IMG/VR virus record: IMGVR_UViG_3300037307_000441
Length of the DNA stretch: 12,377 nt
From: a virus
Taxonomy: Duplodnaviria > Heunggongvirae > Uroviricota > Caudoviricetes
Strand: one strand, 5' to 3'
A program made the position numbers and the translations under genes. This document shows, one piece after another, positions 1-12,377 of the stretch (positions within the stretch are counted from its first letter, which is position 1; each line of letters opens with the position of its first letter). The notes beneath the pieces were generated by a model. It was given only the letters and a program-made list of their open reading frames with translations, did not search any database and was not told the origin of the DNA.

Positions 1-1377
1 TAATCCGCCATATGTATTAGTAGCACACTGACTTCCACTAGCTACCGATAATGTGGCAGTAACTTGTCCAGTTAGATCACCCTGCCATGTAAATCCAACA
101 TTAACAATAGTATTGGAGTTTATTGGGCTATTAGATCCATCTCTTAGTTTTGCCGTAACTTCTATTTGACCACTTCCGTTAGATTGAGCTGACATACAAA
201 GGTCTGCATAAACTTGTAGACTTGTCGTTGTTGTCGTTGTTGTACTTGTCGTTGTTGTTGTCGTCGTTGTCGTCGTCGTTGTCGTCGTTGTCGTCGTCGT
301 TAATGGACAATCCGCAACTAAATTTTGTAGGAACAATCCAGAATTTATATAACTACCTGATGTATATAATAACTCTAAATTCGAAGGAGTTGCGTTGCCA
401 TATGGTGGCATAGAATTTAATATGCTGGTTAGTGATGAAAAACTATTACCATAAACATCAACTCCTAATGCTCCAACAGAACCTTGATTATAATTTACGA
501 CAGTTATCCTTCGTATACCGGCTGATATAGTAACTGGGTAGATATTCCACCACCTAAAAAACTCCGCATTACCGAAGTTAGTTTGACTAAAAGCTGTAAC
601 ACCATCTATAGCTATTTGTCCACCATTATCAAATCCAGTTCCTATATAATATGTTCTAGTGGTGGGTACATTTATTGTAAAATTCAAAAAACCATTACCG
701 ACATATTGAAGTTGTGTAGTTGGGTTAACAGGCACATTGGTAGCATTCCACAATCCAGTTCTATTTAGTCTGCCAGAGGTGGCCCCGGTTGTTATATTAA
801 TCCACCAAGAATTAGACCAAGTTCCAGTATTAACCACCCCGCTATAGGTTGCCGCAATTACAATAGGAGTCCCATCATAATTATATGATGAAAATATCTT
901 AATACCTTGCCATCCATAAGCGGCATTTGCTGAAGCAACTGATTGGCCAGTGATAGCACTGCAACTGCCCCCAACAGAATATGTCGCGTTTACTAAATTT
1001 GATATAGCATACCTTCCATCCCAATTTCTTCTTACACAATAACTATTTCTACCAGAAAAGGTTACTGTAATCAAATTTTTATAATAAGTAACTAAAGTAG
1101 CACTTCCTGTAGCTGCTCCACTTGCAGAGAAACCAACACATCTATAAATAGCTTCTTGACCATAAAAAGCGGACATGCTGAATCCTGCTGTTTGTTTAAC
1201 CCCAGCGGTAGCGACGTTGCCTGGTCTAAAAAAATAAGATAAGGAAAACGTACCAGGTGTTCCAGCTCCACTTGGGCCTGGAATCGGTCCTGCTAAACTA
1301 TGTTGTATACTCATTGTATATCCAACTTCATCAGCTATTAAATCAGTAGAAAGAGGACCAGCAACTGGTAATGGCAT
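1..1377 (-). CDS. Putative virion surface/adhesin (fibre-like) protein with a PA14-like beta-sandwich and a poly-Thr linker; partial, runs off the left edge (at least 459 aa)
   Basis: Not in the ORF track. Hand translation from ATG at 1377 is open for 459 codons to position 1: MPLPVAGPLSTDLIADEVG...GFSMSAFYG...TRTYYIGTGFDNGGQIAIDGVTAFSQTNFGNAEFFRWWNIYPVTISAGIRRITVVNYNQGSVGALGVDVY...CPL-T18-S-T7-S-LQVYADLC... It is G/S/T/N-rich, its N-terminus resembles the M(A/P)LPxSGPxS...(I/F)S(L/M)SxFYG leader common in phage glycine-rich fibre/adhesin proteins, and AATATATAG lies 21 nt upstream. Confidence 0.8.
   Translation of the reverse strand, partial: MPLPVAGPLSTDLIADEVGYTMSIQHSLAGPIPGPSGAGTPGTFSLSYFFRPGNVATAGVKQTAGFSMSAFYGQEAIYRCVGFSASGAATGSATLVTYYKNLITVTFSGRNSYCVRRNWDGRYAISNLVNATYSVGGSCSAITGQSVASANAAYGWQGIKIFSSYNYDGTPIVIAATYSGVVNTGTWSNSWWINITTGATSGRLNRTGLWNATNVPVNPTTQLQYVGNGFLNFTINVPTTRTYYIGTGFDNGGQIAIDGVTAFSQTNFGNAEFFRWWNIYPVTISAGIRRITVVNYNQGSVGALGVDVYGNSFSSLTSILNSMPPYGNATPSNLELLYTSGSYINSGLFLQNLVADCPLTTTTTTTTTTTTTTTTTTSTTTTTTTSLQVYADLCMSAQSNGSGQIEVTAKLRDGSNSPINSNTIVNVGFTWQGDLTGQVTATLSVASGSQCATNTYGGL
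220..300 (-). repeat. (ACG/ACA)n trinucleotide tract encoding T18-S-T7-S
   Basis: Read directly: the plus strand shows gtc/gtt triplet runs; the minus-strand frame gives 25 Thr and 2 Ser. Confidence 0.95.
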
Positions 1378-1431: not shown

Positions 1432-1462
1432 TTTGTAATTTCAATTATTTTTCGTATATTTG
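1432..1462 (+). promoter_or_regulatory. Bacteroidota sigma-A-type promoter (-33 TTTG, 19 nt, -7 TATATTTG)
   Basis: TTTG at 1432-1435 and TATATTTG at 1455-1462 match the TTTG-N19-21-TAnnTTTG consensus; 15 nt upstream of ATG 1478. Confidence 0.8.
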
Positions 1463-1964: not shown

Positions 1965-2540
1965 ATGCATACAATCAATATTAAAATCGAACAGATATTA
2001 GAAGAATGCCCATTTGTGCAAGAATGGATAGATGTTCTTAAAAAGGATATTCTTAAAAAAGAAATAAATAACTCTTCAATAATTTCCTATTACAGTTATG
2101 GATTTTTTGTTAAAAAATCTGAAAATAATATGGATTCTATTATCGATAGAATAGAAAATAATTTTAAATTAAAATATGATGACAGACTTAAAGAAGAGCT
2201 TTCTAAAGTAAGAGTAGATATTATATTACAGATGGGAAATGTGGTATTTTCTAACAGAGTAGAAAAAAATTTTATTCCTAAAACAATATCTGATATTATT
2301 ACAGAAATAACAAAAATTAAGATGAATTTAGAATTTGAAGAACATGGTGATATTGAAATAAAAAATACAATACCACCCTATAGTGATACCGTTATTATAG
2401 AATTTATCGATTATTCTAATCAATCAGAAGAAATTGAATATGATATGGATGATCTTTTAGATAAGATTCACAACCAAGGATACGACTCATTAACACCAGA
2501 AGAAAAATCATTTTTAGATAAAAAAAGTAAAGATGTATAA
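1965..2540 (+). CDS. Hypothetical protein with a C-terminal DUF6576-like helical motif
   Basis: The C-terminus MDDLLDKIHNQGYDSLTPEEKSFLDK resembles the (V/I)DxILDKIxxxGYxSLTxEEK motif at the C-terminus of Bacteroidota rhomboid proteases (recognised from memory). Confidence 0.65.
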   Translation: MHTINIKIEQILEECPFVQEWIDVLKKDILKKEINNSSIISYYSYGFFVKKSENNMDSIIDRIENNFKLKYDDRLKEELSKVRVDIILQMGNVVFSNRVEKNFIPKTISDIITEITKIKMNLEFEEHGDIEIKNTIPPYSDTVIIEFIDYSNQSEEIEYDMDDLLDKIHNQGYDSLTPEEKSFLDKKSKDV

Positions 2541-2994
2541 AATATTACTTATTTTATTATTTACCCCATTATCACTTTTATCACAAAAGATATATAAGTC
2601 AAATTCTACTTTTAGTGAAGATATATTGTTCACTATAAAAAATGATAGGGTATACGAAAAAAACTCTACTTTTAGTAACGATATAATTTTAACCATAAGT
2701 GAAAATAAAATTTATAAAGGTAGAAATAATACTCAGAGTAATTTAATCTATATTATTGAAGATAATATAGTATATAAATTTAGTAAATTAACACAAAATA
2801 TTGTCTTTACCAAAAAAGATAACTTTTTATATAAAAAAAATAGTACATTTAGCAGTGATATATTTATAAACATAGATGGTAATAAAGTGTATCAAACAAG
2901 TAAGTCATATTCACAAAACTTAATTTTTAATAGTAATGAGAATATTGATTTAGTTGAATTAACAGCAATTTTATACTTACTAAAAATAATTTAA
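2533..2994 (+). CDS. Secreted protein built from six ~20-aa tandem repeats
   Basis: Signal peptide MYKILLILLFTPLSLLS followed by Q, then repeats KIYKSNSTFSEDILFTIKND / RVYEKNSTFSNDIILTISEN / KIYKGRNNTQSNLIYIIEDN / IVYKFSKLTQNIVFTKKDN / FLYKKNSTFSSDIFINIDGN / KVYQTSKSYSQNLIFNSNEN. Confidence 0.8.
   Translation: MYKILLILLFTPLSLLSQKIYKSNSTFSEDILFTIKNDRVYEKNSTFSNDIILTISENKIYKGRNNTQSNLIYIIEDNIVYKFSKLTQNIVFTKKDNFLYKKNSTFSSDIFINIDGNKVYQTSKSYSQNLIFNSNENIDLVELTAILYLLKII
2587..2943 (+). repeat. Six imperfect 57-60 nt intragenic repeats (protein repeat x(I/V/L)YxxNSTFSxD(I/L))
   Basis: NSTFS recurs three times (DNA aattctacttttagt, aactctacttttagt, aatagtacatttagc) with ~20-codon periodicity. Confidence 0.8.
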
Positions 2995-2995
2995 T

Positions 2996-4180
2996 ATGTT
3001 TGATGTTGAAAAATATCTTAAAAAAGCTCTTCTAAAATTAAAGCTTAACTATGGTCTGCCTAAAAGTGGGTTTATTGCGGGTGGTTCGATAGCTAATCTA
3101 ACATGGGAGATGGTGTCTGGTCACAAAGCTGTAGTAAATGATATTGACATATTTATTGTTGATAATAGTAACGAAGATAAAATTTATCAATTTGAGAGAA
3201 AAGAATTAGAGTATTTTGAAACTTATGGTCAAATATCATACACTACCAAGGTAAAAGATAGTTATAAAATACACGAATCATCAAACGATGGTATATTTAA
3301 TCGTATTACATATTCTTCTAAAAATACTTCACCACAAATTATAATTGACTCTTTTGATATCAATTCAGTAATGGTTGGATACTCTGTAGATGAAGATAAA
3401 TTCTATTATAGACCAGAATTTGTAGAATTTCTAAAAACAGGTGTATTAAAAGTAGTAAACTTACACACCCCAGCACATACTGCTATAAGATTAATTAAAA
3501 AATCAAATGAGTTAAACGCCAAGGTAGATGAATTAGAATTTAAGATTTTATCACATTGCGTAAAGAATAAACTTCATTTTTCTGATATAGATAGGTATCG
3601 TTTTTTACAGAGGTATGCTGATATGTTTGAAAAATATAAATCCTTTTTACTTAGATATTTTGAACTTAAAAGAGACGCTGAAATAGAAGAATACTTAAAA
3701 GAATCTAAAAAGGTAGAAACTCCTGTTTATTATATTGAACCAATTTCTGAATTTAATTTTGGGGAATTCAAACATAGTATGGCATCTGATTTTTTATTTT
3801 ATGTCAGAAATGTTTTTATAAAGGGTGATGAAAAATTATTTAACATATGGAATAATCTTCATTTTTATTTCAAAGATATTAATTATGTAAATGGTGATGA
3901 AAAGGATGAAGACATAAAATATTTAACTAAGCTTTCAAATCTATATCCTAACATAATCAACAATCTTAAAGGAATGAATTTTGCGGAACAAATAAATATT
4001 GTAAGAAATGTTATGCAAAAAATAACAAATTACTATGACTATGATACAGCCATTTCAGTTTTAGAAAATATTAAATTAAGTAGAAACACCAAGTTTGATG
4101 AAGATAGTTGTTTAATTATAGGTTTAAGTGTAAGAACAAAGGTAAGAAGAAATGATAACAAACCACATTTACCTTTTTAA
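2996..4180 (+). CDS. Nucleotidyltransferase with a poly(A) polymerase/CCA-adding-enzyme-like head domain
   Basis: GFIAGGSIANL...VNDIDIFI matches the (Y/F)xxGGxxRD...DxD class II NTase signature; DSFDINSVMVGY aligns with RRDFTINAMAY. Confidence 0.65.
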   Translation: MFDVEKYLKKALLKLKLNYGLPKSGFIAGGSIANLTWEMVSGHKAVVNDIDIFIVDNSNEDKIYQFERKELEYFETYGQISYTTKVKDSYKIHESSNDGIFNRITYSSKNTSPQIIIDSFDINSVMVGYSVDEDKFYYRPEFVEFLKTGVLKVVNLHTPAHTAIRLIKKSNELNAKVDELEFKILSHCVKNKLHFSDIDRYRFLQRYADMFEKYKSFLLRYFELKRDAEIEEYLKESKKVETPVYYIEPISEFNFGEFKHSMASDFLFYVRNVFIKGDEKLFNIWNNLHFYFKDINYVNGDEKDEDIKYLTKLSNLYPNIINNLKGMNFAEQINIVRNVMQKITNYYDYDTAISVLENIKLSRNTKFDEDSCLIIGLSVRTKVRRNDNKPHLPF

Positions 4181-4186
4181 CTAAAA

Positions 4187-4717
4187 TTATATTTGGTTTC
4201 TCCCAGCTTCGCTTATGTAGACAACTCTACCCTTATCCTCATCATACACCATTATTCTTTTTATCTCATCTATCCACTCTCTTTCAGTTTTATTGTAAAC
4301 TTGTTCTTTAACCTTTTTGATTATATAATCAACATCCTCTCTATTTTTAAAGTTGAATATATTTGATAATTTTAGATATTGAAATCCTGACTCTAAATAT
4401 TTTTCCATAGTGGGCCATTTCTTCATTCTTTTTTCAATCAACCTTAATCTTTTCCTTATCTTGTTTAATTTAGATGGTATTTCAATATCATATTTTATAT
4501 CTTCAAGAATTTCATATTCTGCTTTTTCTACATAATAGTTATCAATAGCGGTGTTGACTAAAAAATCAATTTTTTTATCAGTTGAGAAATTTGCCCAAAT
4601 TGGAGTTACCACAGGGGCCATAATTAATCCAAAAAACATTTGAGCATAGTAGTTAAGATTTCTCTCTTGTCCTATTGATTCATTTACAAAATCATCAAAT
4701 TTATTTATATGTTTCAT
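4187..4717 (-). CDS. Hypothetical protein with a capsid-targeting-like N-terminus (MKHINKFDDFVNES); probable internal head protein
   Basis: 176-aa ORF; the N-terminal peptide resembles T4 IPII/IPIII MKTYQEFIAE; AATATATAC lies 8 nt upstream. Confidence 0.7.
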   Translation of the reverse strand: MKHINKFDDFVNESIGQERNLNYYAQMFFGLIMAPVVTPIWANFSTDKKIDFLVNTAIDNYYVEKAEYEILEDIKYDIEIPSKLNKIRKRLRLIEKRMKKWPTMEKYLESGFQYLKLSNIFNFKNREDVDYIIKKVKEQVYNKTEREWIDEIKRIMVYDEDKGRVVYISEAGRNQI

Positions 4718-4718
4718 A

Positions 4719-5981
4719 CTAATTGTATATATTATTTTTAATAAATGATGAATAATTCATTAAAATAGACTCTCTAACAAGTTGATAACCTTTACCTATT
4801 TTTTGTAATTTTTTTCTATTCTTTTTCAAATCAGATCCAAACTTATTTAAATTAGCTCCTTTTTGGTATATAAGAAAATCAAGTTGAGCATCTGTTAGTT
4901 TTCCATCATTTTTATCAAACTCAGACATAATCAAATTGTAAAAATCATGTCTGTTTAATTTTTCTATACCAAAATGTTTTTTAAAATCCTCAAGATTATT
5001 AAAGACTAAATCATTCATATAAATCAAACCATTTTGAACACTTATTTCTAATTCATCATCTTCATGCCATTTAGTGAAATGATATTTTCTACCAGATTTG
5101 AAGTGATATAAATAATTCTTATAACTTCTAACTTCTTGACAAACATAATATAAGTTATCTAATATAGTAAATACTTCTTGGAATATTTTTTGATCGTTAG
5201 ACAGTTGTATTTCTTCGGTTTCTAATCTAGAATCAATTTGATAATTTCTATCAAGCAATCTAACGGTTGGTAAGTTATCCCATTTTATTTTGATGGCGGC
5301 TTTCGCAACACTTTCAACATATTTAATATCCACATATTCATTTGTGGTGTGTTCATTATAAACCCCTACTGATAGGTTAACAATTTCAGGAATTAAATCT
5401 CCAAAAAATGCCGTATCTGTATAATAACCAGTTCTATCTTTTTGATAATCAATGCCATTTGATTTAAAATCTTCAATTAACTTATCAGCAAATTCATCTG
5501 AACAACAACTTCTTCCAAATTGACGTGTTATTAATTGCCCCTTTTCTTTTCTATCAAATGATACAGCCCTTTTGAATTTTTTAAAAAATTCAGGATTAGA
5601 TTCAATTGCTAATAAAGAACCGTGTGGTAAATCTTTATGAACGGCACCTTCTTCACCTAAGAAAAAATAATAAGTTCCTGGAACAAAATTTTCAATCATA
5701 TAAAACAAAACGCAACACCCTGCTTTATTATCACCCCCCAAAATTGTGGTTCCGTCAGTTTTGATTATATTTCCGTTTATTATATGATTGACTTTTTCTT
5801 TCTTATCGGTTGATACATCTAGGTGTGATGTAAATAAGGTTTCTGAAGTTCCAATTTGATAGTAATAATTACCAACCGAATCTTTTTTCCATCCACTTGG
5901 TAGTAGATGCTCTAGTTCCGATTCGTGTCCAAAAGGTATTGTCCACTCTGTTAATTTTAAAAATGTATCTTTAAAGTTCAT
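4719..5981 (-). CDS. M20/M28-clan zinc metallopeptidase (probable start 5981, MNFKDTF; the track starts at 5993)
   Basis: Full set of clan MH ligands: TSHLD (His), GGDNKAG (Asp), LGEEG (Glu-Glu), SFDR (Asp), NEHTTNE (His). ATG 5981 lies 1 nt after the upstream TAA, the same coupling as at 4717. Confidence 0.85.
   Translation of the reverse strand: MNFKDTFLKLTEWTIPFGHESELEHLLPSGWKKDSVGNYYYQIGTSETLFTSHLDVSTDKKEKVNHIINGNIIKTDGTTILGGDNKAGCCVLFYMIENFVPGTYYFFLGEEGAVHKDLPHGSLLAIESNPEFFKKFKRAVSFDRKEKGQLITRQFGRSCCSDEFADKLIEDFKSNGIDYQKDRTGYYTDTAFFGDLIPEIVNLSVGVYNEHTTNEYVDIKYVESVAKAAIKIKWDNLPTVRLLDRNYQIDSRLETEEIQLSNDQKIFQEVFTILDNLYYVCQEVRSYKNYLYHFKSGRKYHFTKWHEDDELEISVQNGLIYMNDLVFNNLEDFKKHFGIEKLNRHDFYNLIMSEFDKNDGKLTDAQLDFLIYQKGANLNKFGSDLKKNRKKLQKIGKGYQLVRESILMNYSSFIKNNIYN
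4725..4733 (-). promoter_or_regulatory. Putative late promoter AATATATAC embedded in the last codons of the peptidase gene
   Basis: The motif lies within codons N-N-I-Y, 8 nt before ATG 4717. Confidence 0.4.
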
Positions 5982-5982
5982 A

Positions 5983-6216
5983 TTAGTCAACATATATTAA
6001 TACTATATCATCATCAACATCATATTCTTCTCCATTTGTTATACTAATCATAAAATAAGAGGTGCTATCTAAATTAGAATTATAAACAATAACTTTTTTA
6101 TCATCATCGATGTTGGATAAAAGTTTTTTTAAATCACCAACTGTTGTTGGAGCCTCCAACTTTAGCCTAAATTCTTTGTCAATATCTTCTGTAATAATCT
6201 TTGTAAATTTTTTCAT
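5983..6216 (-). CDS. Small acidic hypothetical phage protein with a targeting-like N-terminus (MKKFTKIITE)
   Basis: 77 aa; TVGDLKKLLSNIDDDKKVIV resembles the common phage MTVxELxxxLxxxxxDxxV motif; co-oriented within the cassette. Confidence 0.75.
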   Translation of the reverse strand: MKKFTKIITEDIDKEFRLKLEAPTTVGDLKKLLSNIDDDKKVIVYNSNLDSTSYFMISITNGEEYDVDDDIVLIYVD

Positions 6217-6230
6217 AAATATTTATATTT

Positions 6231-7424
6231 TTAATCATCATCATCATATCCAGCATTGTGGTCATAATCATCTTCATAATCATCATCTTCAGACCACTCT
6301 ATATATGTTGATTCAGGAAAACTTTGATTACTAATTTTCCCAGTATCTGGATTCCATTTATCCATTGTATCAACAGATGGAAATTTTTCCATACCAGTTT
6401 CTTTTAACTGAGCAACATATGTATTATTATAATTATTACCATCATCTATTGCATCCCATTCCATATGTTTTGCATAATCCTTAAATATTTTCACATCAGA
6501 ATCATTACTAACATATATTCTATCCATCATTTTTTTACCATCAACTAAATTCCATACCAGAGCTCTACCAACTATTTTATCAGGATTTTCATCTGATTTT
6601 AATATTAATAACTTTACTGTTTCTGGATTCTTAATGTATATCTCTAACCAGTCTAATCTACCAACCGCTTGACAAGATGATCCTAAACTCCCTTTATGTG
6701 GATGTAAATAGTTTTTTCTGTGATACCAAAAACCTAAATCATCTCCCTCTACAATTTCAAAATTAGAAAAAGCATCATTTATAACTTTAAGAGTTCCCTT
6801 AAAATCATTTACAAATTTTTCTATTTCACTGTCACTTACATTATTAATTCCATTTGCTGATAATAAACTCCTGACTAATCTTCCAATTCTTATTTCTTGT
6901 CTACTTTTGTTAAACACTATTTTATATAATTTATCTTTAGCATCTTTTAACTTTTCATAATTATAGACCCCTTGACCATTTTCAAATTTAACATAACACC
7001 ATGTTTTTCCACTTTTTTCTGACTTAATTTTACTTACAATCTCACCAATTTCTCCACCTTGTGGGTTATATACTTCCTTTGTTGTTGGAACATATCCAAG
7101 TGAATCGAAAATATTTTTATTAGCTTCTACATTATTAGTCAACCATCCACCTCTTCCCCCCTCATAACTAACTACTTCTTTATCTGTCTTTAATACTTCT
7201 TGAGCAACTCTGTCTGGAGTAAAGGTTAAAGATGAATCATCGTCTTTCTTTATACCAATAAAATTAGCAGTTACATTTAGATCTTTATTTTCAATCTCTA
7301 ATAATTTAGAGGCAATTTTATTATCACTCATTTTATTGAGCACTTTTTTAAATTTATCAGAATAAATTACATTAGATTCTAATAAAAGAGATTCAATTAT
7401 AAATTCAGAATAATTAGTTATCAT
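6231..7424 (-). CDS. Conserved phage protein of the SC(M/Q)...GRALxW...MDRIY type (possibly GNAT-like) with a capsid-targeting-like N-terminus and an acidic tail
   Basis: 397 aa; motifs RQEIRIGRLV, GSLGSSCQ, IVGRALVW, MMDRIYV; N-terminus MITNYSEFIIES; C-terminus EDDDYEDDYDHNAGYDDDD. The fold assignment is inference. Confidence 0.75.
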   Translation of the reverse strand: MITNYSEFIIESLLLESNVIYSDKFKKVLNKMSDNKIASKLLEIENKDLNVTANFIGIKKDDDSSLTFTPDRVAQEVLKTDKEVVSYEGGRGGWLTNNVEANKNIFDSLGYVPTTKEVYNPQGGEIGEIVSKIKSEKSGKTWCYVKFENGQGVYNYEKLKDAKDKLYKIVFNKSRQEIRIGRLVRSLLSANGINNVSDSEIEKFVNDFKGTLKVINDAFSNFEIVEGDDLGFWYHRKNYLHPHKGSLGSSCQAVGRLDWLEIYIKNPETVKLLILKSDENPDKIVGRALVWNLVDGKKMMDRIYVSNDSDVKIFKDYAKHMEWDAIDDGNNYNNTYVAQLKETGMEKFPSVDTMDKWNPDTGKISNQSFPESTYIEWSEDDDYEDDYDHNAGYDDDD

Positions 7425-7441
7425 TTAATAAGAAGTATTTT

Positions 7442-7472
7442 TTTGTATATATTAAATTTTTAGTTATATTTG
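7442..7472 (+). promoter_or_regulatory. Bacteroidota sigma-A-type promoter (-33 TTTG, 19 nt, -7 TATATTTG)
   Basis: TTTG at 7442-7445, TATATTTG at 7465-7472; 14 nt before ATG 7487. Confidence 0.8.
7445..7453 (-). promoter_or_regulatory. Putative late promoter AATATATAC
   Basis: The 8-mer ends 21 nt before ATG 7424 and lies in the spacer of the opposite-strand sigma-A promoter. Confidence 0.6.
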
Positions 7473-7486
7473 TAGAAAGTGTATAT

Positions 7487-8101
7487 ATGATACCTACTTT
7501 AGATTCAATTATTAAAATATCTGGAATACATCCCTCAAGGGTATTTAATGTATACCTATTTGGTTCAAGGGTTTATGGAACTTCTGATCTCAACTCGGAT
7601 TGGGATGTTATTATGATTGCAAATAATCATGCCGAATCAACTGAAATTCGTAGAGGTATTTTTAATATTCATGTTTATACCCCGGATAAATTTAGAAAAG
7701 ATTTAGATTGGCATCGCATCAATAATTTGGAATGTATTTATGCCCCTGATTGGGCTAAGCTTAAAGAAGCCATAAAATTCGACGACTTCAAGATTCATAA
7801 AAATAAATTACGACACGCTATTTCTCACATTAGTTCAAATTCTTGGGTTAAGTGTAGAAAAAAAATGGAGGTCGAAAATGAATATTATATTGGTATTAAG
7901 TCACTATTTCATTCAATTAGAATTCCTATGTTTGCTACACAAATAGTAGAATTTGGAAAGATAAGGGATTTTGAGTGTGCGAATTTTGTGTGGGATAAAT
8001 TAAAGAAAAATCATTTGACATGGGGAGAGTTGGATAGAGAATTTAGACCATTATTAAATTCGACTATGACACAATTCAGAAAATTAGTACCAAAAATTTA
8101 A
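7487..8101 (+). CDS. Pol-beta-superfamily nucleotidyltransferase, RlaP-like
   Basis: YLFGSRVYGTSDLNSDWDV (GS...DxD); NIHVYTPDKF...NNLECIYAP and KSLFHSIRI...IVEFGKI follow the RlaP/PF10127-type pattern. Confidence 0.75.
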   Translation: MIPTLDSIIKISGIHPSRVFNVYLFGSRVYGTSDLNSDWDVIMIANNHAESTEIRRGIFNIHVYTPDKFRKDLDWHRINNLECIYAPDWAKLKEAIKFDDFKIHKNKLRHAISHISSNSWVKCRKKMEVENEYYIGIKSLFHSIRIPMFATQIVEFGKIRDFECANFVWDKLKKNHLTWGELDREFRPLLNSTMTQFRKLVPKI

Positions 8102-8104
8102 TAT

Positions 8105-8887
8105 ATGAGAAATAATTCAAATAATTATCATTTTGGTCGTCATGTATTTGATTATTTTCCATGGAATAAATATAATAATGAGAATATTTATTCTGATCCG
8201 GTTGTAAATATGGAGATACATAGAGATTTCAAATTTGCTTTTTCTGACGAGTTTTCTCCGGCTTCATTTTTTTGGTATGATAATTCAGTGACGATAAGTA
8301 AATTATCTAATATATTTAATGATGATAGTAGAATATACCGTGGTCCAAATAATATAATAACCTACCGAGGAATAAGTGAAACTGCCTATACTTGGGAAGA
8401 TATTGAAAAAATTAGGTTAAGATGTATATTTGGTGTTGAAGATGTGGCAAATAGATATATGAAAATTATTGATCTTTATACTAAAAATAGATATTTGATA
8501 TTAGATGCACTCTATTTAGATTCTGGTGAAGAAGAGATAGAAACACCACTCATTAGTTTATCAGATATAGTAAATAGGGAGCAAGAAGAACTGTGTATGG
8601 AATTTATATCAGAGAGTGATGTATATGAATCTATTAATAAAAGAAATTATAAAAGAAACAAATTCACCGACTCTATTAGTGAATTCTTTAGAACTCGTGG
8701 ATATTTAACTGAAAAACAAGTAAGCGCATTTGCTAAGACATCTTATAAAGAAATTCTATCTAATAAAGACATGGTTTTTTTTAGTATAAAGACAAACAAA
8801 CTAAGAAATATTGATAGAATGATTAAATATTTTGAATCAATCGAATTAACTTGTAAAAAAACAAATAATTTATTATTAATTTACTAA
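8105..8887 (+). CDS. Hypothetical protein
   Basis: 260-aa ORF, 3 nt after the upstream stop; its C-terminal FTDSISEFFRTRGYLTEKQ resembles a recurrent phage FxxSI...GxL(S/T)xKQ motif. Confidence 0.75.
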   Translation: MRNNSNNYHFGRHVFDYFPWNKYNNENIYSDPVVNMEIHRDFKFAFSDEFSPASFFWYDNSVTISKLSNIFNDDSRIYRGPNNIITYRGISETAYTWEDIEKIRLRCIFGVEDVANRYMKIIDLYTKNRYLILDALYLDSGEEEIETPLISLSDIVNREQEELCMEFISESDVYESINKRNYKRNKFTDSISEFFRTRGYLTEKQVSAFAKTSYKEILSNKDMVFFSIKTNKLRNIDRMIKYFESIELTCKKTNNLLLIY

Positions 8888-8898
8888 TTTATAATTTT

Positions 8899-9129
8899 AT
8901 GTTCTTCAATAAAAAGCAAAGAAATAAAGAAACAGATTCACTTATCAATGAATATAAAAATATTCAAGGAAGTATAGATTTTTTAGAAAATGAAGTATCC
9001 AATTATATCATAAAATCTTTAAAGGAAGATGTTGCTCAATATATCAATAATTTAAAATCTGGTTCAACTGCACATAAAAATGTCTATTGGTATATAGAAA
9101 AGGAGTTAGAGCAAATGAGTTTATATTAA
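8899..9129 (+). CDS. Hypothetical protein (76 aa), possibly the 5' half of a frameshifted gene
   Basis: ATG start with operon-like spacing; overlaps the next open frame by 43 nt. Confidence 0.6.
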   Translation: MFFNKKQRNKETDSLINEYKNIQGSIDFLENEVSNYIIKSLKEDVAQYINNLKSGSTAHKNVYWYIEKELEQMSLY

Positions 9130-9401
9130 AAAAGAATATTAGATTAGAAATCAATATTATGACCAATGGTTTTTTTGATGAAAAATTTGAAATAAATGAA
9201 ATCAAAATGATTAACCCAAGACATATGAATATAAAAATAACTAAAGAAATAAAAGATATAATATTCAAATATGTAATGGAATTTAAAATAAGTAGTCTAA
9301 ATTCTAAATTAGAAGAAACTAAGAATGCATTCGCTTCGATAGAAAATTTGGTTGGTAAATCAGTAGTCAGAGATTCAAAAATTGATAATATATTTAAATA
9401 A
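9087..9401 (+). CDS. Hypothetical protein with a C-terminal RDSKIDNI motif (start uncertain: TTG 9087 or ATG 9159)
   Basis: Open frame ending VVRDSKIDNIFK; the same octapeptide occurs in the 10232..10555 product. Confidence 0.65.
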   Translation: MVYRKGVRANEFILKKNIRLEINIMTNGFFDEKFEINEIKMINPRHMNIKITKEIKDIIFKYVMEFKISSLNSKLEETKNAFASIENLVGKSVVRDSKIDNIFK

Positions 9402-9404
9402 AAT

Positions 9405-9413
9405 AATATATAG
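9405..9413 (+). promoter_or_regulatory. Putative late promoter AATATATAG
   Basis: In the 32-nt intergenic gap; the 8-mer ends 21 nt before ATG 9434. Confidence 0.6.
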
Positions 9414-9433
9414 ATAAAACTATACTATTTTTA

Positions 9434-10237
9434 ATGGCATTAATTAAAAAATTCGAATCACTATCAATTGACACAACTATAGAACACTGTAAAGACGTTA
9501 TTGAGACTTTATCTGATTTCGAAGATGATGTTGAAATTAAAAATTATGCCATAGGATATATATATTCGGATAGGGTAGAACAAAATCCAACAACAGAAAG
9601 GGATAAAAAAGGTATAAAATTTAATTTATTCTTAAAGAAAGAATTCAAATCAATAACAGGTAAAGAATCTTTTGATGATCAAATATTTTTACTACAAAAA
9701 TCTAAATACCTTTACTCTAAAATACGTAGTTACTGTGATGAAATAAAAATAGATGTAAGAACAGGATACGTTACATTTATTTTACAATTTGAAAATACTG
9801 ATGAATCAATAAAAAATAAAGCTAAATTAAATAGGGTTTATAAAGGATTGGGAGAAGCTCTTAAGGATTATGATAGGTTTAAAACTATTTATCTATCATC
9901 TGAAGAGCAATTAACTAAAGCTAATAATGATTATTATAAAGATTGTTTAAATATATTAAGATCAATTAATAAAGGTTTAGAAAAGAAAAAGGAATTCACA
10001 CATTTCAGATTTTCAGTTGATATGTCAGAGGAAAATGGTATTATTACTTTAAAACCAAAGCAATTCAGGTATAAAGATGGTTATAGTTGGAAGACAGTAA
10101 GATATAATTCTGAGTTGGCAAAAAATGTTGTTAGATGTTTACAACATAACTTAGAATCAGGGTATATCTATAATGTTAGTCGTGGTGATATAAAGTATGA
10201 GGAAAAAGATACCGAACTAAAGATTATAATATTATAA
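9434..10237 (+). CDS. Hypothetical protein with a MALIKKFES leader; possible internal head protein
   Basis: 267-aa ORF with its own AATATATAG motif and a short (I/L)KKFES leader. Confidence 0.75.
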   Translation: MALIKKFESLSIDTTIEHCKDVIETLSDFEDDVEIKNYAIGYIYSDRVEQNPTTERDKKGIKFNLFLKKEFKSITGKESFDDQIFLLQKSKYLYSKIRSYCDEIKIDVRTGYVTFILQFENTDESIKNKAKLNRVYKGLGEALKDYDRFKTIYLSSEEQLTKANNDYYKDCLNILRSINKGLEKKKEFTHFRFSVDMSEENGIITLKPKQFRYKDGYSWKTVRYNSELAKNVVRCLQHNLESGYIYNVSRGDIKYEEKDTELKIIIL

Positions 10238-10555
10238 TCTTGATTGTGATAATCCAGTATCATCCGGGTCATATTTAAAATCTAAGTAAAATAATTCACC
10301 TCTTGGCATTTCTTTATAATAATCAGGATGTTCTTCTGGTTTCATTTCTTTATATTCTTTTCCTTCTATAATATTATCAATTTTACTATCACGATTTATA
10401 GCATTTACTTCTGCTTTAATTTCATCAGTAGCAAATCCTACTTTACCAAAAGGATCAACAGATACTAAATCCATTCCGATTGTTTTTGATGCAACTTTCA
10501 TTACCATTGGAAACAATGAATTAAAATCAGTTTCTTCCCACTTTTTATTTTTCAT
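10232..10555 (-). CDS. Mini-protein resembling a fragment of T4 gp23-type major capsid protein (Gol region) with a ~45-aa insertion
   Basis: LFPMVMKVASKTIGMDLVSVDPF...MPRGELFYLDFKY aligns with gp23 VMGMVRRAIPNLIAFDICGVQPM-NSPTGQVFALRAVY (gp23 sequence from memory). Confidence 0.6.
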   Translation of the reverse strand: MKNKKWEETDFNSLFPMVMKVASKTIGMDLVSVDPFGKVGFATDEIKAEVNAINRDSKIDNIIEGKEYKEMKPEEHPDYYKEMPRGELFYLDFKYDPDDTGLSQSRL

Positions 10556-10736
10556 TTTTAAATATTATTTTTCTATAATATGAAAGAAGCTTCCGATGTT
10601 CTTTGAATTCATCATCATCGGAAGCTTTGTGACCTTTAGAAATAGCTAAAACAATTTCTAATTCCATCTTAATAATTTGACTTATTAAATATTCTTTATC
10701 TACCTTGTCCTCTATAATTTCTTTCTTTTTTTTCAT
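10545..10736 (-). CDS. Hypothetical protein (probable start ATG 10736, or a later ATG near 10667; the track's TTG start lies inside the upstream gene)
   Basis: Open frame MKKKKEIIEDKVDKEYLISQIIKMELEIVLAISKGHK...; its stop overlaps the start of the next gene. Confidence 0.55.
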   Translation of the reverse strand: MKKKKEIIEDKVDKEYLISQIIKMELEIVLAISKGHKASDDDEFKEHRKLLSYYRKIIFKNEK

Positions 10737-10827
10737 GTTTATTATAAGCCTTTTTATATTTACCGCTTCTTCTTTTACCAAAACTTACTTTGTTGCTGGA
10801 TGTAGATCCCCCTTTAGCTTTTGCCAT
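10696..10827 (-). CDS. Small basic protein (43 aa) ending in YRGQGR
   Basis: Not in the track. Hand translation: MAKAKGGSTSSNKVSFGKRRSGKYKKAYNKHEKKERNYRGQGR*. A C-terminal YRGQG(R/K) is a motif I recognise from small basic proteins of T4-like phages. First gene behind AATATATAC. Confidence 0.8.
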   Translation of the reverse strand: MAKAKGGSTSSNKVSFGKRRSGKYKKAYNKHEKKERNYRGQGR

Positions 10828-10866
10828 TTTTATATGTTTATTTTTTATGTTGGTTTAACCAATAAA

Positions 10867-10875
10867 GTATATATT
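10867..10875 (-). promoter_or_regulatory. Putative late promoter AATATATAC
   Basis: In the divergent intergenic region; the 8-mer ends 40 nt before ATG 10827. Confidence 0.5.
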
Positions 10876-10876
10876 T

Positions 10877-10909
10877 TTTGTTAAAATCAGAAAAAAATAA
10901 TTATATTTG
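10877..10909 (+). promoter_or_regulatory. Bacteroidota sigma-A-type promoter (-33 TTTG, 21 nt, -7 TATATTTG)
   Basis: TTTG at 10877-10880, TATATTTG at 10902-10909; 16 nt before ATG 10926. Confidence 0.8.
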
Positions 10910-10925
10910 TGGTAAAATTTAAACT

Positions 10926-11222
10926 ATGGCAACAATCCAAGGATTAAAAATCAATGAGGCTGAATATGAATTAGAAAATGGTGAAAAAGCTAAATTAGCC
11001 GTTCTGCTTTATGCTGGAGAAGAGGACCCAAAACCAATATTAGATTGGGCAGTCGCCAACTATACAGAAGGTAGTGGTGGTAAATATTATGAATTAATTG
11101 ATGCTGAATTAAATTGTCCTTGGGTTAGAGTTATTCTAAGTAATATTAACGACATGAAACAAATTACTTGGGCGGAAGCCATGAGAGAAATAAAACTTAA
11201 TAAATTATTAGATATAAAATAG
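10926..11222 (+). CDS. Hypothetical protein with a C-terminal REIKLNKLL motif
   Basis: 98-aa ORF directly behind the promoter, 2 nt before kptA. Confidence 0.75.
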   Translation: MATIQGLKINEAEYELENGEKAKLAVLLYAGEEDPKPILDWAVANYTEGSGGKYYELIDAELNCPWVRVILSNINDMKQITWAEAMREIKLNKLLDIK

Positions 11223-11224
11223 AT

Positions 11225-11758
11225 ATGGAAATAACAAGAAAATCAAGATTGTTAGTAAGAGCGCTAAGACATGACCCATCATCATTGGGGTTGACGCTGG
11301 ATCCTAGAGGGTGGGTGAGTGTCAGTGATGTATTAAAATCATTATCGATTGACAAAAATTCTCTGGATATTATGGTCTCCACTAACAACAAAGGTAGGTT
11401 TGAATATAACGACAATAAAACCAAAATAAGAGCATGTCAGGGGCACTCTATAAAAACACTTGAAGTTTATAAAGATTGGAAAATATTTGTACCTGACTCT
11501 GATTTGTACCACGGGACAGCTACCAAATCGGTAGACCAAATATTAAAATCTAAATTGATATCGAAAACAAGAACACACGTTCATCTATCAAAAGATTTAG
11601 AGACTGCATATAATGTCGGTGCTAGACATGGAACACCAGTAATATTAAAAATAGATGCGGTCAAAATGCAAAAAGATGGATTTAAATTCTATGAGTCTAA
11701 AAATGGTGTAGTATTAGTTGATGAAGTTCCGAATAGGTATATACAAGTTATTTTTTAA
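11225..11758 (+). CDS. kptA: RNA 2'-phosphotransferase (KptA/Tpt1), NAD+-dependent
   Basis: All hallmark motifs present: LRHDP, GWVSV, KGRF, IRACQGHS, LYHGT, RTHVHLS, GARHG, NGVVLVDEVP. Confidence 0.95.
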   Translation: MEITRKSRLLVRALRHDPSSLGLTLDPRGWVSVSDVLKSLSIDKNSLDIMVSTNNKGRFEYNDNKTKIRACQGHSIKTLEVYKDWKIFVPDSDLYHGTATKSVDQILKSKLISKTRTHVHLSKDLETAYNVGARHGTPVILKIDAVKMQKDGFKFYESKNGVVLVDEVPNRYIQVIF

Positions 11759-12377
11759 ACTTGACTCTTAATTTATTATAAATTTCTTTAGCCTTTCTCC
11801 TACTAACATTCATTATTTTATCATTATAGTATACATTATAATCAGTTAATCCTGGGGTTTTTATTGGATGGAGCCAATTTGAAAATTCCACTCTGATATC
11901 TTCATATTCCACAAAGCTTCTATGAGTTTCTATTTTAAATGAAAAGATTTTAATAAATTCTTCTTTAACTTTTTTCTCGGAATATTCCAAATCAAATATT
12001 TTATTTGTATCAATTAAATGTTCTAATTCCTCAGCATCTACTTCATGTTCGTATTTTAATCTACGTATGGTTTTCCCAATTCCTAATAATTCGTTTACTC
12101 TATTAATATCTTTAAGATCTTTAGGAGGAGGATCTCCATATTCTGATACTCTAATGTTTAATTCTTCATCATCACAATTGATAATTTCAAAGTCTACTAT
12201 TATGTTATAAATATATGATTTTTTAAAATATTTTAATCCAAGAACAAATCCTCCTATCTTATCACCTATTTTATCATCATAATAATTTCCATAAAACTCT
12301 AATATATCATCAACATAGCAAGCAGAAACATCACCATCTGAAAAATCAACTCTTGTTACTTTAATTTTATTGATATC
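11748..12377 (-). CDS. Hypothetical protein, partial (at least 209 aa, start beyond the right edge)
   Basis: The frame of the track's 80-aa ORF stays open to the window end: DINKIKVTRVDFSDGDVSACYVDDILEFYG...DLEYSEKKVKEEF...KLRVKFKK*. Confidence 0.8.
   Translation of the reverse strand, partial: DINKIKVTRVDFSDGDVSACYVDDILEFYGNYYDDKIGDKIGGFVLGLKYFKKSYIYNIIVDFEIINCDDEELNIRVSEYGDPPPKDLKDINRVNELLGIGKTIRRLKYEHEVDAEELEHLIDTNKIFDLEYSEKKVKEEFIKIFSFKIETHRSFVEYEDIRVEFSNWLHPIKTPGLTDYNVYYNDKIMNVSRRKAKEIYNKLRVKFKK

What the first reader, a model, noticed from the sequence alone, without database searches (positions are those of the whole stretch)
2996..11758. Distributed early RNA/tRNA-repair toolkit: CCA-like NTase, RlaP-like NTase and KptA/Tpt1, one in each sigma-A unit
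Each of the three host-promoter-driven units contains one RNA-end-processing enzyme. Established knowledge: Tpt1 removes 2'-phosphates left at ligation junctions using NAD+; RlaP-type Pol-beta NTases are associated with RNA ligases in repair systems; CCA enzymes rebuild tRNA 3' ends. Inference: together they counter host anticodon nucleases and tRNA-end toxins. No RNA ligase or Pnkp is in the window, so either it lies elsewhere or these enzymes form an unconventional pathway (Tpt1 can also ADP-ribosylate nucleic-acid ends).
Basis: partly seen in the sequence, partly recalled or inferred. Interest (0 to 1): 0.7.

Follow-up and report, generated by a model that had tools for sequence, protein, structure and literature searches.

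The report
Three unlinked early RNA-end enzymes
A large freshwater phage carries three real nucleic-acid-end enzymes behind three host-type promoters, but relatives do not inherit them together, so they look like independent accessory genes rather than one tRNA-repair kit.

Summary
The layout is real. Exactly three Bacteroidota sigma-A-type promoters (TTTG-N17-22-TAnnTTTG) occur in the window, each just upstream of one + strand unit, and each unit holds one enzyme.

- 11225-11758 is an intact Tpt1/KptA (Pfam 3e-43, catalytic tetrad aligned).
- 2996-4180 has a class II CCA-adding-enzyme head and neck (Z 10.7). It gets no PolyA_pol Pfam match and appears to lack the specificity motifs. By Pfam PF26128 and by fold (TM 0.60) it belongs to the Gad2 (anti-Gabija) family.
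- 7487-8101 is a very conserved 204-aa Pol-beta nucleotidyltransferase. It misses the RlaP Pfam cut-off (E 0.042), but its model matches an all-RlaP cluster at TM 0.75, so "RlaP-like" holds by shape only.

- Tpt1 is absent from all 31 more distant records that carry the Gad2-like gene.
- It is truncated in the nearest relative, missing in the next, and sits elsewhere in another.
- The small NTase occurs in only 5 of those 31.

RNA ligases and tRNA arrays do exist in this phage group. In many huge phages the Gad2-like gene sits in a sigma factor-SmpB-YqeY-tRNA block.

Verdict: ordinary members of known kinds, with one modestly new lead, a CCA-fold Gad2 family in a tRNA setting. The scan had already noted this gene's altered motifs on this same window.

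The parts
1432..1462 (+). Promoter 1, Bacteroidota sigma-A type (TTTG, 19-nt spacer, TATATTTG), heading + unit 1
   Evidence: Pattern match; sequence read. That it functions as a promoter is inferred.
1965..2540 (+). 191-aa ORF with a C-terminal DUF6576 match; unit 1
   Evidence: Pfam PF20216 E 1.4e-7. 79% identical and syntenic in L005.
2533..2994 (+). 153-aa Bflower_3 (6-fold beta flower) protein, immediately upstream of the NTase
   Evidence: Pfam PF21786 E 2.9e-26. The same pairing occurs in L005-L008.
2996..4180 (+). 394-aa Gad2-family nucleotidyltransferase with a class II CCA-adding-enzyme-like head and neck (P0001)
   Evidence: Precomputed PF26128 hit. AF2 model pLDDT 92. VIA Z 10.7 to 3h39 over residues 2-226. 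Atlas TM 0.60 to a Gad2-named cluster. G29, G30, D49, D51 and D121 are invariant in 33 homologues. 28 of 33 homologues match NTP_transf_6.
4187..7424 (-). Intervening - strand unit of 176-aa, 424-aa (peptidase), 77-aa and 397-aa ORFs. It separates units 1 and 2 and is not part of the claimed toolkit.
   Evidence: ORF list. PHROG 4191 peptidase E 1.4e-49. AATATATAC motifs face this strand at 4725-4733 and 7445-7453.
7442..7472 (+). Promoter 2, same type (TTTG, 19-nt spacer, TATATTTG), heading + unit 2
   Evidence: sequence read.
7487..8101 (+). 204-aa two-domain Pol-beta nucleotidyltransferase (P0002), very strongly conserved
   Evidence: Pfam Polbeta E 3e-5 and NTP_transf_2 E 5.5e-5. More than 600 clusters at 65-90% identity. 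G26, S27, D38 and D40 are invariant. AF2 model pLDDT 93.5. Best PDB matches are HalB 9dbj and ANT enzymes. Atlas TM 0.75 to an all-RlaP cluster.
8105..10237 (+). Rest of unit 2: 260-aa (P0003), 76-aa, 104-aa and 267-aa ORFs of unknown function. The last has its own AATATATAG motif at 9405-9413.
   Evidence: No Pfam, PHROG, PADLOC or NCBIfam hits for those scanned. Atlas uninformative. Motif.
10877..10909 (+). Promoter 3, same type (TTTG, 21-nt spacer, TATATTTG), heading + unit 3
   Evidence: sequence read.
10926..11222 (+). 98-aa ORF of unknown function, co-directional with Tpt1
   Evidence: ORF list. No homologue in L005 or L007.
11225..11758 (+). 177-aa RNA 2'-phosphotransferase Tpt1/KptA (P0004), full length, with R14-H15-R69-R116 aligned to the conserved R-H-R-R positions
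   Evidence: The nearest representative is 68% identical, the rest about 50% or less.

Best explanation
The window is the start of a 76-kb contig from a large, low-GC freshwater phage whose promoters are of the Bacteroidota type. Three short + strand units carry host sigma-A-type promoters, so they are probably early genes. Each encodes one apparently active nucleic-acid-end enzyme, but the three are independent accessory or core genes, not one co-inherited pathway.

1. P0001 is a Gad2-family nucleotidyltransferase. Its catalytic head and neck derive from the class II CCA-adding / poly(A) polymerase fold. It appears to lack that family's nucleotide-selecting motifs. It most likely adds nucleotides without a template to an RNA 3' end, tRNA-like or otherwise, or to a defence-related nucleic acid. 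The one tested relative blocks Gabija defence.
2. P0002 is a small Pol-beta NTase with an RlaP / HalB / ANT-type two-domain shape. Its substrate is unknown. Its extreme conservation suggests a housekeeping step of this phage group.
3. Tpt1 is a sporadically acquired gene. It uses NAD+ to remove RNA 2'-phosphates or to cap 5'-phosphate ends. It probably works with RNA ligases encoded elsewhere in the genome.

Shown here: the gene identities, folds, promoter motifs and phyletic patterns. Inferred: early timing, substrates, and any anti-defence or repair role.
For: Promoters: three matches, all heading the + units.

Tpt1: Pfam 3.4e-43, best solved relative Runella Tpt1, conserved R-H-R-R positions aligned.

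P0001:
- PF26128 Gad2 by precomputed Pfam.
- Atlas TM 0.60 over residues 2-394 to a cluster named Gad2 family.
- hhalign against the verified SPbetaL7 Gad2 clade gives E 1.7e-4, probability 49%, 139 collinear columns covering the GG, DxD and FD(I/F) motifs.
- VIA Z 10-10.7 to CCA-adding enzymes.
- Catalytic G29, G30, D49 and D51 are invariant.

P0002: 65-90% identity across more than 600 clusters, and still 70-71% identical in the two huge phages where P0001 is only 38-40% identical.

Non-linkage:
- Tpt1 is in 0 of 31 relatives. P0002 is in 5 of 31.
- Tpt1 is truncated to 138 aa in L005, absent from the same slot in L007 and L008, and in a different setting next to TyrRS in L060.
- In the huge phages the P0001 and P0002 homologues lie about 160 to 250 kb apart.

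Ligases elsewhere in the lineage.

Literature: Gad2 is needed for Gabija escape and is a predicted NTase of unknown mechanism (bioRxiv 10.1101/2023.05.01.538930). KptA in jumbo phages has been assigned to RNA repair (PMC9503650).
Against: - All three genes do sit together, in the same order, in the window and in its nearest relative, so a lineage-specific combination cannot be excluded.
- The neighbourhoods of all three families in relatives are translation-themed. P0001's family lies next to SmpB, YqeY, an aaRS and tRNA arrays. A P0002 relative shares an operon with TyrRS, an RNA ligase and IF3. A Tpt1 relative lies next to TyrRS. This fits a shared RNA theme.
- The link to verified Gad2 is remote: blastp finds nothing significant and hhalign probability is only 49%.
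- IMG/VR contigs are often fragments, so some absences may be false. Even so, 8 are at least 90% complete and none has Tpt1.
- The rest of this phage's genome could not be searched.
Confidence: 0.6

Rival explanations
1. The three enzymes form one distributed early tRNA/RNA-repair pathway. A CCA-like enzyme rebuilds 3' ends, an RlaP-like NTase assists a ligase, and Tpt1 clears 2'-phosphates. Together they counter host anticodon nucleases, using ligases encoded elsewhere.
For: - All three lie behind host-type promoters.
- Every one of 12 large relatives has at least one RNA ligase family gene, and the two huge phages have Rnl1-type plus 4-5 PF09414 genes.
- tRNA arrays rich in Lys, Arg, His and Phe lie near the P0001 family.
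- The P0002 fold resembles RlaP, and one relative shares an operon with an RNA ligase.
- Earlier notes, not checked here, place tRNA-like genes, Pth2 and another CCA-head NTase on the same contig.
- The published view of phage KptA is RNA repair (PMC9503650).
Against: - Co-occurrence fails: Tpt1 is in 0 of 31 relatives and P0002 in 5 of 31.
- Tpt1 is decaying or absent in the nearest relatives.
- The genes lie in three separate units split by opposite-strand genes.
- P0001 has no PolyA_pol match and appears to lack the RRD and EDxxR specificity motifs (motif reading from my own knowledge, also noted).
- Bona fide RlaP genes sit at other loci in the relatives.
- No ligase or end-healing enzyme is in the window.
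Confidence: 0.2
2. A purely counter-defence reading. Each enzyme neutralises a different host immune system. P0001 would act like Gad2 against Gabija. P0002 would act as a HalB-like maker of a decoy oligonucleotide signal against Hailong-type systems. Tpt1 would ADP-ribosylate or de-phosphorylate a defence-related nucleic acid.
For: - Gad2 family assignment.
- The best solved structural matches of P0002 are Hailong HalB chains, E 5e-6, TM up to 0.58, with a weak NCBIfam HalB hit, E 1.1e-4.
- Early, host-promoter-driven expression suits anti-defence genes (inference).
- Tpt1's patchy distribution is typical of accessory arms-race genes.
Against: - P0002 is far too conserved (about 70% identity across very distant phages) for a typical arms-race gene.
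- Its HalB score is 21.9 bits against a cut-off of 190. ANT and RlaP folds match about as well or better.
- No PADLOC support beyond weak PDC-S09 hits.
- The P0001 family sits in a conserved translation-themed block, not in a variable anti-defence island, in 22 of 29 loci.
- No anti-defence activity is known for any Tpt1.
Confidence: 0.2

Closest known systems
Tpt1/KptA RNA 2'-phosphotransferase (Runella slithyformis Tpt1, PDB 7kw8; jumbo-phage KptA genes such as Erwinia phage vB_EamM_Y3 gp272)
   Same: - Full-length match, 177 against 178 aa, E 3.2e-39.
- The conserved R-H-R-R positions align.
- 44-46% identical to annotated Tpt1 genes of Erwinia, Dickeya and Bacillus jumbo phages.
   Different: - No adjacent ligase, 2H or Macro gene in the window. 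The Erwinia phage copy also has none nearby.
- Patchy within its own phage group.
- The substrate in bacteria and phages is not established (PMC6573784 abstract).
Gad2, Gabija anti-defence protein 2 of Bacillus phage SPbetaL7 (WIT28108.1; Pfam PF26128)
   Same: - Similar length, 394 against 400 aa.
- Predicted NTase with collinear IAGG, NDxD and FD(I/F) motifs.
- Same Pfam family by precomputed hits.
- Phage-encoded.
   Different: - Only remote similarity: blastp not significant, hhalign probability 49% over the N-terminal 140 columns only.
- 28 of 33 members of the P0001 clade also match NTP_transf_6, against none of 24 members of the Bacillus clade.
- Different genomic setting: Bflower_3 here, and a sigma-SmpB-tRNA block in huge phages.
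- Anti-Gabija activity is untested.
Class II CCA-adding enzymes and poly(A) polymerase (PDB 3h39, 4wby, 1miv, 3aql)
   Same: Head plus neck fold: Z 10.0-10.7, rmsd 3.8-4.1 A over 175-181 residues, 14-16% identity. The two catalytic aspartates after a GG turn are kept. Overall size is about 400 aa with a helical C-terminal half.
   Different: - No PF01743 or PF12627 match.
- GGxVRD reads GGSIAN, the RRD position reads IDS, and the EDxxR position reads TPAHTAIR. This motif reading is mine from memory and is also noted.
- The C-terminal half did not align.
RlaP, RNA-ligase-associated Pol-beta NTase (Pfam PF10127)
   Same: Two-domain NTase plus helical bundle. The model has TM 0.75, 189 residues, rmsd 3.3 A to an ESM-Atlas cluster in which all members carry RlaP. 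17% of its own cluster's members carry RlaP. One distant relative shares an operon with an RNA ligase.
   Different: - Below the Pfam cut-off (14 against 23 bits).
- About half the length of the phage RlaP proteins (204 against 378-400 aa).
- Only the catalytic motif aligns to them.
- True RlaP genes occupy other loci in the same relatives.
- Not next to a ligase in the window.
Hailong HalB oligodeoxyadenylate synthase (PDB 9dbh, 9dbj) and aminoglycoside nucleotidyltransferases (ANT(4'), AadA)
   Same: Best solved-structure matches of P0002: Foldseek E 5e-6 to 1e-3, TM 0.4-0.58.
   Different: 14-17% identity. NCBIfam HalB score is 21.9 bits against a cut-off of 190. Phage-encoded and not beside a HalA-like gene.

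Membership tests
Tpt1/KptA (PF01885) | Profile match above the curated cut-off over the full domain | tested here: met
   148.2 bits against a cut-off of 26, profile positions 5-176 of 177.
Tpt1/KptA (PF01885) | Catalytic Arg-His-Arg-Arg tetrad | tested here: met
   R14-H15, R69 and R116 align with the LRH, IRA and RHHVHLS positions of Runella Tpt1 7kw8. That these are the catalytic residues is established knowledge, not tested here.
Tpt1/KptA (PF01885) | NAD+-dependent removal of RNA 2'-phosphate | not testable with these tools
   Needs an enzyme assay or yeast tpt1 complementation.
Class II CCA-adding enzyme / poly(A) polymerase (PF01743) | PolyA_pol head-domain profile match | tested here: not met
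   No PF01743 hit for P0001 even at E 10. None in 33 homologues at E 0.01.
Class II CCA-adding enzyme / poly(A) polymerase (PF01743) | Head and neck fold | tested here: met
   VIA Z 10.7, rmsd 3.8 A, 176 residues to 3h39_A. 35 CCA, PAP or TENT5 entries score above Z 6, then there is a drop to about Z 3.
Class II CCA-adding enzyme / poly(A) polymerase (PF01743) | Nucleotide-selecting motifs RRD (motif B) and EDxxR (motif D) | tested here: inconclusive
   Read by eye only. The family consensus has SFDIN and TPxHTAIRxxKK at the expected places. No residue-level alignment to a solved CCA enzyme could be obtained.
Gad2 (PF26128) | Profile match to the Pfam Gad2 model | tested here: met
   Precomputed PF26128.2 is listed for P0001 and most homologues. 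It is unmarked (E at most 1e-5) for the 75%-identical P0006 and weak for P0011. The model is not in the local Pfam copy, so I could not rescore it.
Gad2 (PF26128) | Homology to the experimentally verified Gad2 of SPbetaL7 | tested here: inconclusive
   hhalign of profile A1 against profile A3: probability 49%, E 1.7e-4, 139 columns. Profile A1 against the single SPbetaL7 Gad2 sequence by hhalign: probability 14%. P0001 against that sequence by blastp: nothing significant. Atlas fold match TM 0.60 to a Gad2-named viral cluster in which 47% of members carry PF26128.
Gad2 (PF26128) | Inhibition of Gabija defence | not testable with these tools
   Needs a phage plating assay on Gabija-bearing cells.
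RlaP (PF10127) | Profile match above the curated cut-off | tested here: not met
   14 bits against a cut-off of 23, E 0.042, profile positions 20-51 of 249 only.
RlaP (PF10127) | Shared fold with RlaP proteins | tested here: met
   TM 0.75 by the query, 189 residues, rmsd 3.3 A to an Atlas cluster in which 100% of members carry RlaP. HalB and ANT folds also match.
RlaP (PF10127) | Gene neighbourhood with an RNA ligase | tested here: not met
   No ligase in the window. The P0002 homologues in W01, W02 and G007 are 8 kb to more than 100 kb from any ligase. Only the G024 copy shares an operon with one.
Phage tRNA-repair system (ligase plus end-healing enzymes, T4 Pnkp-Rnl1 or KptA-2H-ligase type) | RNA ligase and end-healing enzyme encoded with the other components | tested here: not met
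   None among the 20 ORFs of the window. The rest of the genome is not available.
Phage tRNA-repair system (ligase plus end-healing enzymes, T4 Pnkp-Rnl1 or KptA-2H-ligase type) | Components co-occur across related genomes | tested here: not met
   Among relatives that carry the P0001 family, Tpt1 is in 0 of 31 and P0002 in 5 of 31.
Hailong HalB (NF051895) | Profile match above the curated cut-off | tested here: not met
   21.9 bits against a cut-off of 190.

The most novel reading that the evidence does not exclude
Gad2-family proteins, including the verified anti-Gabija Gad2, may be diverged class II tRNA-nucleotidyltransferase relatives that act on a tRNA-, tmRNA- or other RNA 3' end. In huge phages they would be near-core members of a sigma factor-NTase-SmpB-YqeY-tRNA-array translation-takeover block. 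Their anti-Gabija effect would then work through an RNA or nucleotide product rather than through binding of the Gabija complex.
Probability: 0.2. Interest if true: 0.7.

Novelty: new member of a known kind. Interest (0 to 1): 0.35.

Why it matters
- It shows that three RNA-end enzymes lying near each other in a big phage need not be a pathway. The phyletic test separates a sporadic Tpt1 from two conserved but unlinked nucleotidyltransferases.
- The useful lead concerns the Gad2 family, whose mechanism was still described as unknown in 2026 reviews (PMC13670838, PMC13728456). At least its huge-phage branch has a CCA-adding-enzyme head and neck. In that branch it sits in a conserved block with a sigma factor, SmpB, YqeY and tRNA arrays.
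- That gives a concrete substrate hypothesis, RNA 3' ends, for an anti-defence family.
- The 204-aa NTase is also one of the most conserved genes of this phage group and still has no known function.

Tried and rejected
**Finding the window's own genome**
- No whole genome is held for the window.
- An exact 60-mer was not found in IMG/VR.
- Exact-protein look-ups of P0001 and P0004 returned nothing. The ligase, Pnkp and 2H content of this phage itself could therefore not be checked.
- Megablast of the whole window against GenBank phages found no match.

**Searches of the window that found nothing**
- tRNA scan and Rfam scan: nothing.
- PADLOC: only weak PDC-S09 hits on P0002.
- The sigma-70 consensus scan was uninformative in this AT-rich DNA: 117 sites against 90 expected.

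**Searches in relatives**
- RtcB (PF01139) is absent from both huge phages.
- Close relatives of Tpt1 sought by peptide patterns in viral and genome collections: none.

**Direct family comparisons that were weak**
- P0001 against SPbetaL7 Gad2 by blastp: no significant alignment.
- Profile of the P0001 family against PDB sequences: only weak hits, including 2la3 at E 0.095.
- P0002 profile against three phage RlaP proteins: only the catalytic motif aligns, probability 13%.

**Other**
- Looking for gad1/gad2 in the phi3T region 104-116 kb was a wrong guess. The SPbetaL7 record was then reached by megablast.
- ESM-Atlas look-ups of the 260-aa and 267-aa ORFs of unit 2 gave nothing usable.
- Sequencing runs: no RNA holder is listed. 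The DNA holders are freshwater metagenomes, one of which may be the source sample.
- No literature was found on the Bflower family's function.
- I considered and rejected a recoded genetic code. The ORFs tile the window well under table 11.

Full report
**What the window is.** The window has about 27% G+C and is tiled by 20 ORFs under table 11.
- Its proteins belong to a contig of 76,377 bp. The position of earlier notes suggests the window is at that contig's start.
- No whole genome is held.
- The 394-aa protein has homologues in two complete uncultured phages of 634,780 and 642,428 bp and in IMG/VR contigs of up to 508 kb.
- DNA holders are freshwater metagenomes.
- Earlier notes of this scan, which I did not check, place GOLLD RNA, tRNA-like genes, a Pth2 gene and a second short CCA-head NTase further along the same contig.

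**The units.**
- The Bacteroidota sigma-A promoter pattern TTTG-N17-22-TAnnTTTG matches exactly three times on both strands.
- All three matches are on the + strand, at 1432-1462, 7442-7472 and 10877-10909. Each carries the same TATATTTG box and ends 15-17 nt before the first ORF of a + strand block.
- The number of matches is not remarkable (24 of 200 shuffles reach three). What counts is that all three fall in the three divergent intergenic gaps.
- The opposite-strand genes are faced by AATATATA(G/C) motifs.
- That the + units are early is an inference from promoter type.

**Tpt1 (11225-11758).** This is a solid call.
- Pfam PF01885 E 3.4e-43 over the full profile, PHROG 5470.
- The best solved relative is Runella slithyformis Tpt1, 7kw8, at E 3.2e-39.
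- R14-H15, R69 and R116 align with the conserved Arg-His-Arg-Arg positions.
- It is 44-46% identical to Tpt1 genes of Erwinia, Dickeya and Bacillus jumbo phages.

**The 'CCA-like' NTase (2996-4180, P0001).**
- The local Pfam copy gives only a sub-threshold NTP_transf_6 hit, E 2.2e-4. 28 of 33 homologues give the same hit. There is no PolyA_pol hit.
- A 33-sequence alignment shows invariant G29, G30, D49, D51 and D121. This points to an active enzyme.
- The AlphaFold model is confident, pLDDT 92. Residues 1-245 align to class II CCA-adding enzymes at Z 10.0-10.7, rmsd about 4 A, 175-181 residues. That is clearly above the unrelated rows.
- The expected GGxVRD, RRD and EDxxR motifs read GGSIAN, IDS and TPAHTAIR. 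This is my reading from memory of the family, and one search shows the same note. CCA specificity should not be assumed.
- The precomputed Pfam annotation for this protein and most homologues is PF26128, named Gad2.
- Gad2 is the second anti-Gabija protein of SPbeta-like phages. It is a 400-aa predicted NTase, and its knockout makes SPbetaL7 Gabija-sensitive (bioRxiv 10.1101/2023.05.01.538930). Two 2026 reviews still give no mechanism (PMC13670838, PMC13728456).
- I fetched the verified gene (OQ921347.1, WIT28108.1) and built a profile of its clade.
- Profile-profile comparison with the P0001 family gives E 1.7e-4 and probability 49% over 139 collinear columns that include the catalytic motifs. 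Single-sequence comparisons are not significant.
- A shape search of the ESM Atlas puts a cluster named Gad2 family first, TM 0.60 over residues 2-394, ahead of CCA enzymes at TM 0.38-0.39.
- I read P0001 as a distant, huge-phage branch of the Gad2 family that keeps a CCA-enzyme-like head and neck.

**The 'RlaP-like' NTase (7487-8101, P0002).**
- It matches generic Pol-beta NTase models. It matches RlaP only at E 0.042, across the catalytic motif.
- Its family is strikingly conserved: 65-90% identity in more than 600 clusters. It is still 70-71% identical in the two huge phages where P0001 is about 40% identical.
- The model, pLDDT 93.5, is an NTase domain plus a helical bundle. The best solved matches are Hailong HalB and aminoglycoside NTases.
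- In the ESM Atlas it matches an all-RlaP bacterial cluster at TM 0.75. 17% of its own cluster's members carry RlaP.
- Genuine RlaP genes, E about 1e-19 and 378-400 aa, lie at other loci in three relatives. They align to P0002 only at the motif.
- So 'RlaP-like' holds by shape, fails by Pfam membership, and lacks the defining ligase neighbourhood here.

- Among 29 IMG/VR contigs with a P0001 homologue, 8 of them at least 90% complete, none has Tpt1 and 3 have P0002.
- The two complete huge phages have P0002 but no Tpt1. Their P0001 and P0002 homologues lie about 160 to 250 kb apart.
- In the nearest relative, L005, where P0001 is 75% identical, all three genes keep their order. Its Tpt1 stops at residue 138 and no remnant of the C-terminus was found.
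- In the next relatives, L006-L008 at 48-49% identity, the two NTases stay syntenic. Where the locus extends far enough (L007, L008), the Tpt1 slot is empty.
- A 53%-identical Tpt1 lies in a different place, 1 kb from a TyrRS gene, in another contig of the group.
- Tpt1 is therefore a mobile, dispensable accessory gene. The two NTases are conserved but not linked to it or, beyond the close relatives, to each other.

**What speaks for an RNA theme all the same.**
- Every one of 12 large relatives has an Rnl1-type gene (8 of 12) or a PF09414 ligase (10 of 12). The huge phages have both and no RtcB.
- In 22 of 29 IMG/VR loci and in LR756502.1 the P0001 homologue sits in a conserved block first seen in LR745206.1: sigma-70-family factor, NTase, SmpB, YqeY.
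- tRNA arrays (Phe, His, Trp, several Lys, Arg, Ser) lie 5-9 kb downstream in 18 of 29 IMG/VR loci and within 7-12 kb in both huge phages. In the two huge phages, RNA-ligase-family genes follow the arrays.
- In one 508-kb phage a P0002 relative lies in an operon of TyrRS, HNH, an L7/L12-like gene, the NTase, an RNA ligase and IF3.
- Conserved synteny inside one phage lineage is weak functional evidence. It does keep an RNA or tRNA substrate for the Gad2-like NTase alive, and it is the most interesting lead here.

**Verdict.**
- The 'distributed toolkit' interpretation is not supported by co-occurrence.
- The best reading is three independent early genes: a Gad2-family CCA-fold NTase, a core small NTase of unknown substrate, and a sporadic Tpt1. 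Confidence is about 0.6.
- All three belong to known kinds, so novelty is modest.

Noticed in passing
L001:11279-25125; L002; L019-L037, L040 and L043 (IMG/VR loci): In 22 of 29 IMG/VR huge-phage loci and in LR756502.1, the P0001-family NTase sits in the conserved block first seen in LR745206.1: 624-aa ORF, sigma-70-family factor, NTase, 222-aa ORF, SmpB, 555-aa ORF on the other strand, YqeY (a few loci lack one or two of these ORFs). A tRNA array follows in 18 of the 29 and in both huge phages. The window's own lineage lacks this arrangement.
   Followed up: partly
L019-L035 tRNA arrays, e.g. L019:10184-11074 and L025:19652-19918: Many tRNA-Lys genes in these arrays are 84-91 nt long by ARAGORN, which is oversize for tRNA-Lys. 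There are 3-4 Lys genes per array.
   Followed up: no
L051:434-6910 (G024, 508-kb IMG/VR contig): A 36%-identical relative of the 204-aa NTase lies in an overlapping-gene operon: TyrRS, HNH, L7/L12-like, NTase, four small ORFs, RNA ligase (PF09414), IF3.
   Followed up: partly
window 2533-2994: A Bflower_3 (6-fold beta flower, PF21786, E 2.9e-26) gene ends 1 nt before the Gad2-like NTase starts. The pairing is kept in L005-L008. No literature on its function was found.
   Followed up: partly
window 11748-12377 (- strand) and L057:1075-1728: The ORF converging on Tpt1 is homologous to the 217-aa ORF that converges on the 68%-identical Tpt1 in other contigs. It is also present in L005 and absent in L007, so it comes and goes with Tpt1. 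The full-length L057 copy starts MKWVKSFENI, which recalls the paralogous ORFan family noted further along this contig.
   Followed up: partly
window 1-1377 (- strand): This 459-aa open-ended ORF has clearly higher G+C (0.36-0.39) than the rest of the window (0.22-0.30). It has no family hit and no counterpart in L005, where R2K and NADAR genes occupy that side.
   Followed up: no
window 9405-9413: One AATATATAG motif lies on the + strand inside + unit 2, 21 nt before the 267-aa ORF at 9434. That gene may therefore have a second, phage-type promoter.
   Followed up: no
L005:1-8321 (closest relative contig): Just upstream of the syntenic region the closest relative encodes IF3, a ribosome hibernation factor (S30AE), GrpE, DnaJ, NADAR and R2K-type proteins. 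This is a translation, chaperone and ADP-ribose-themed neighbourhood.
   Followed up: no
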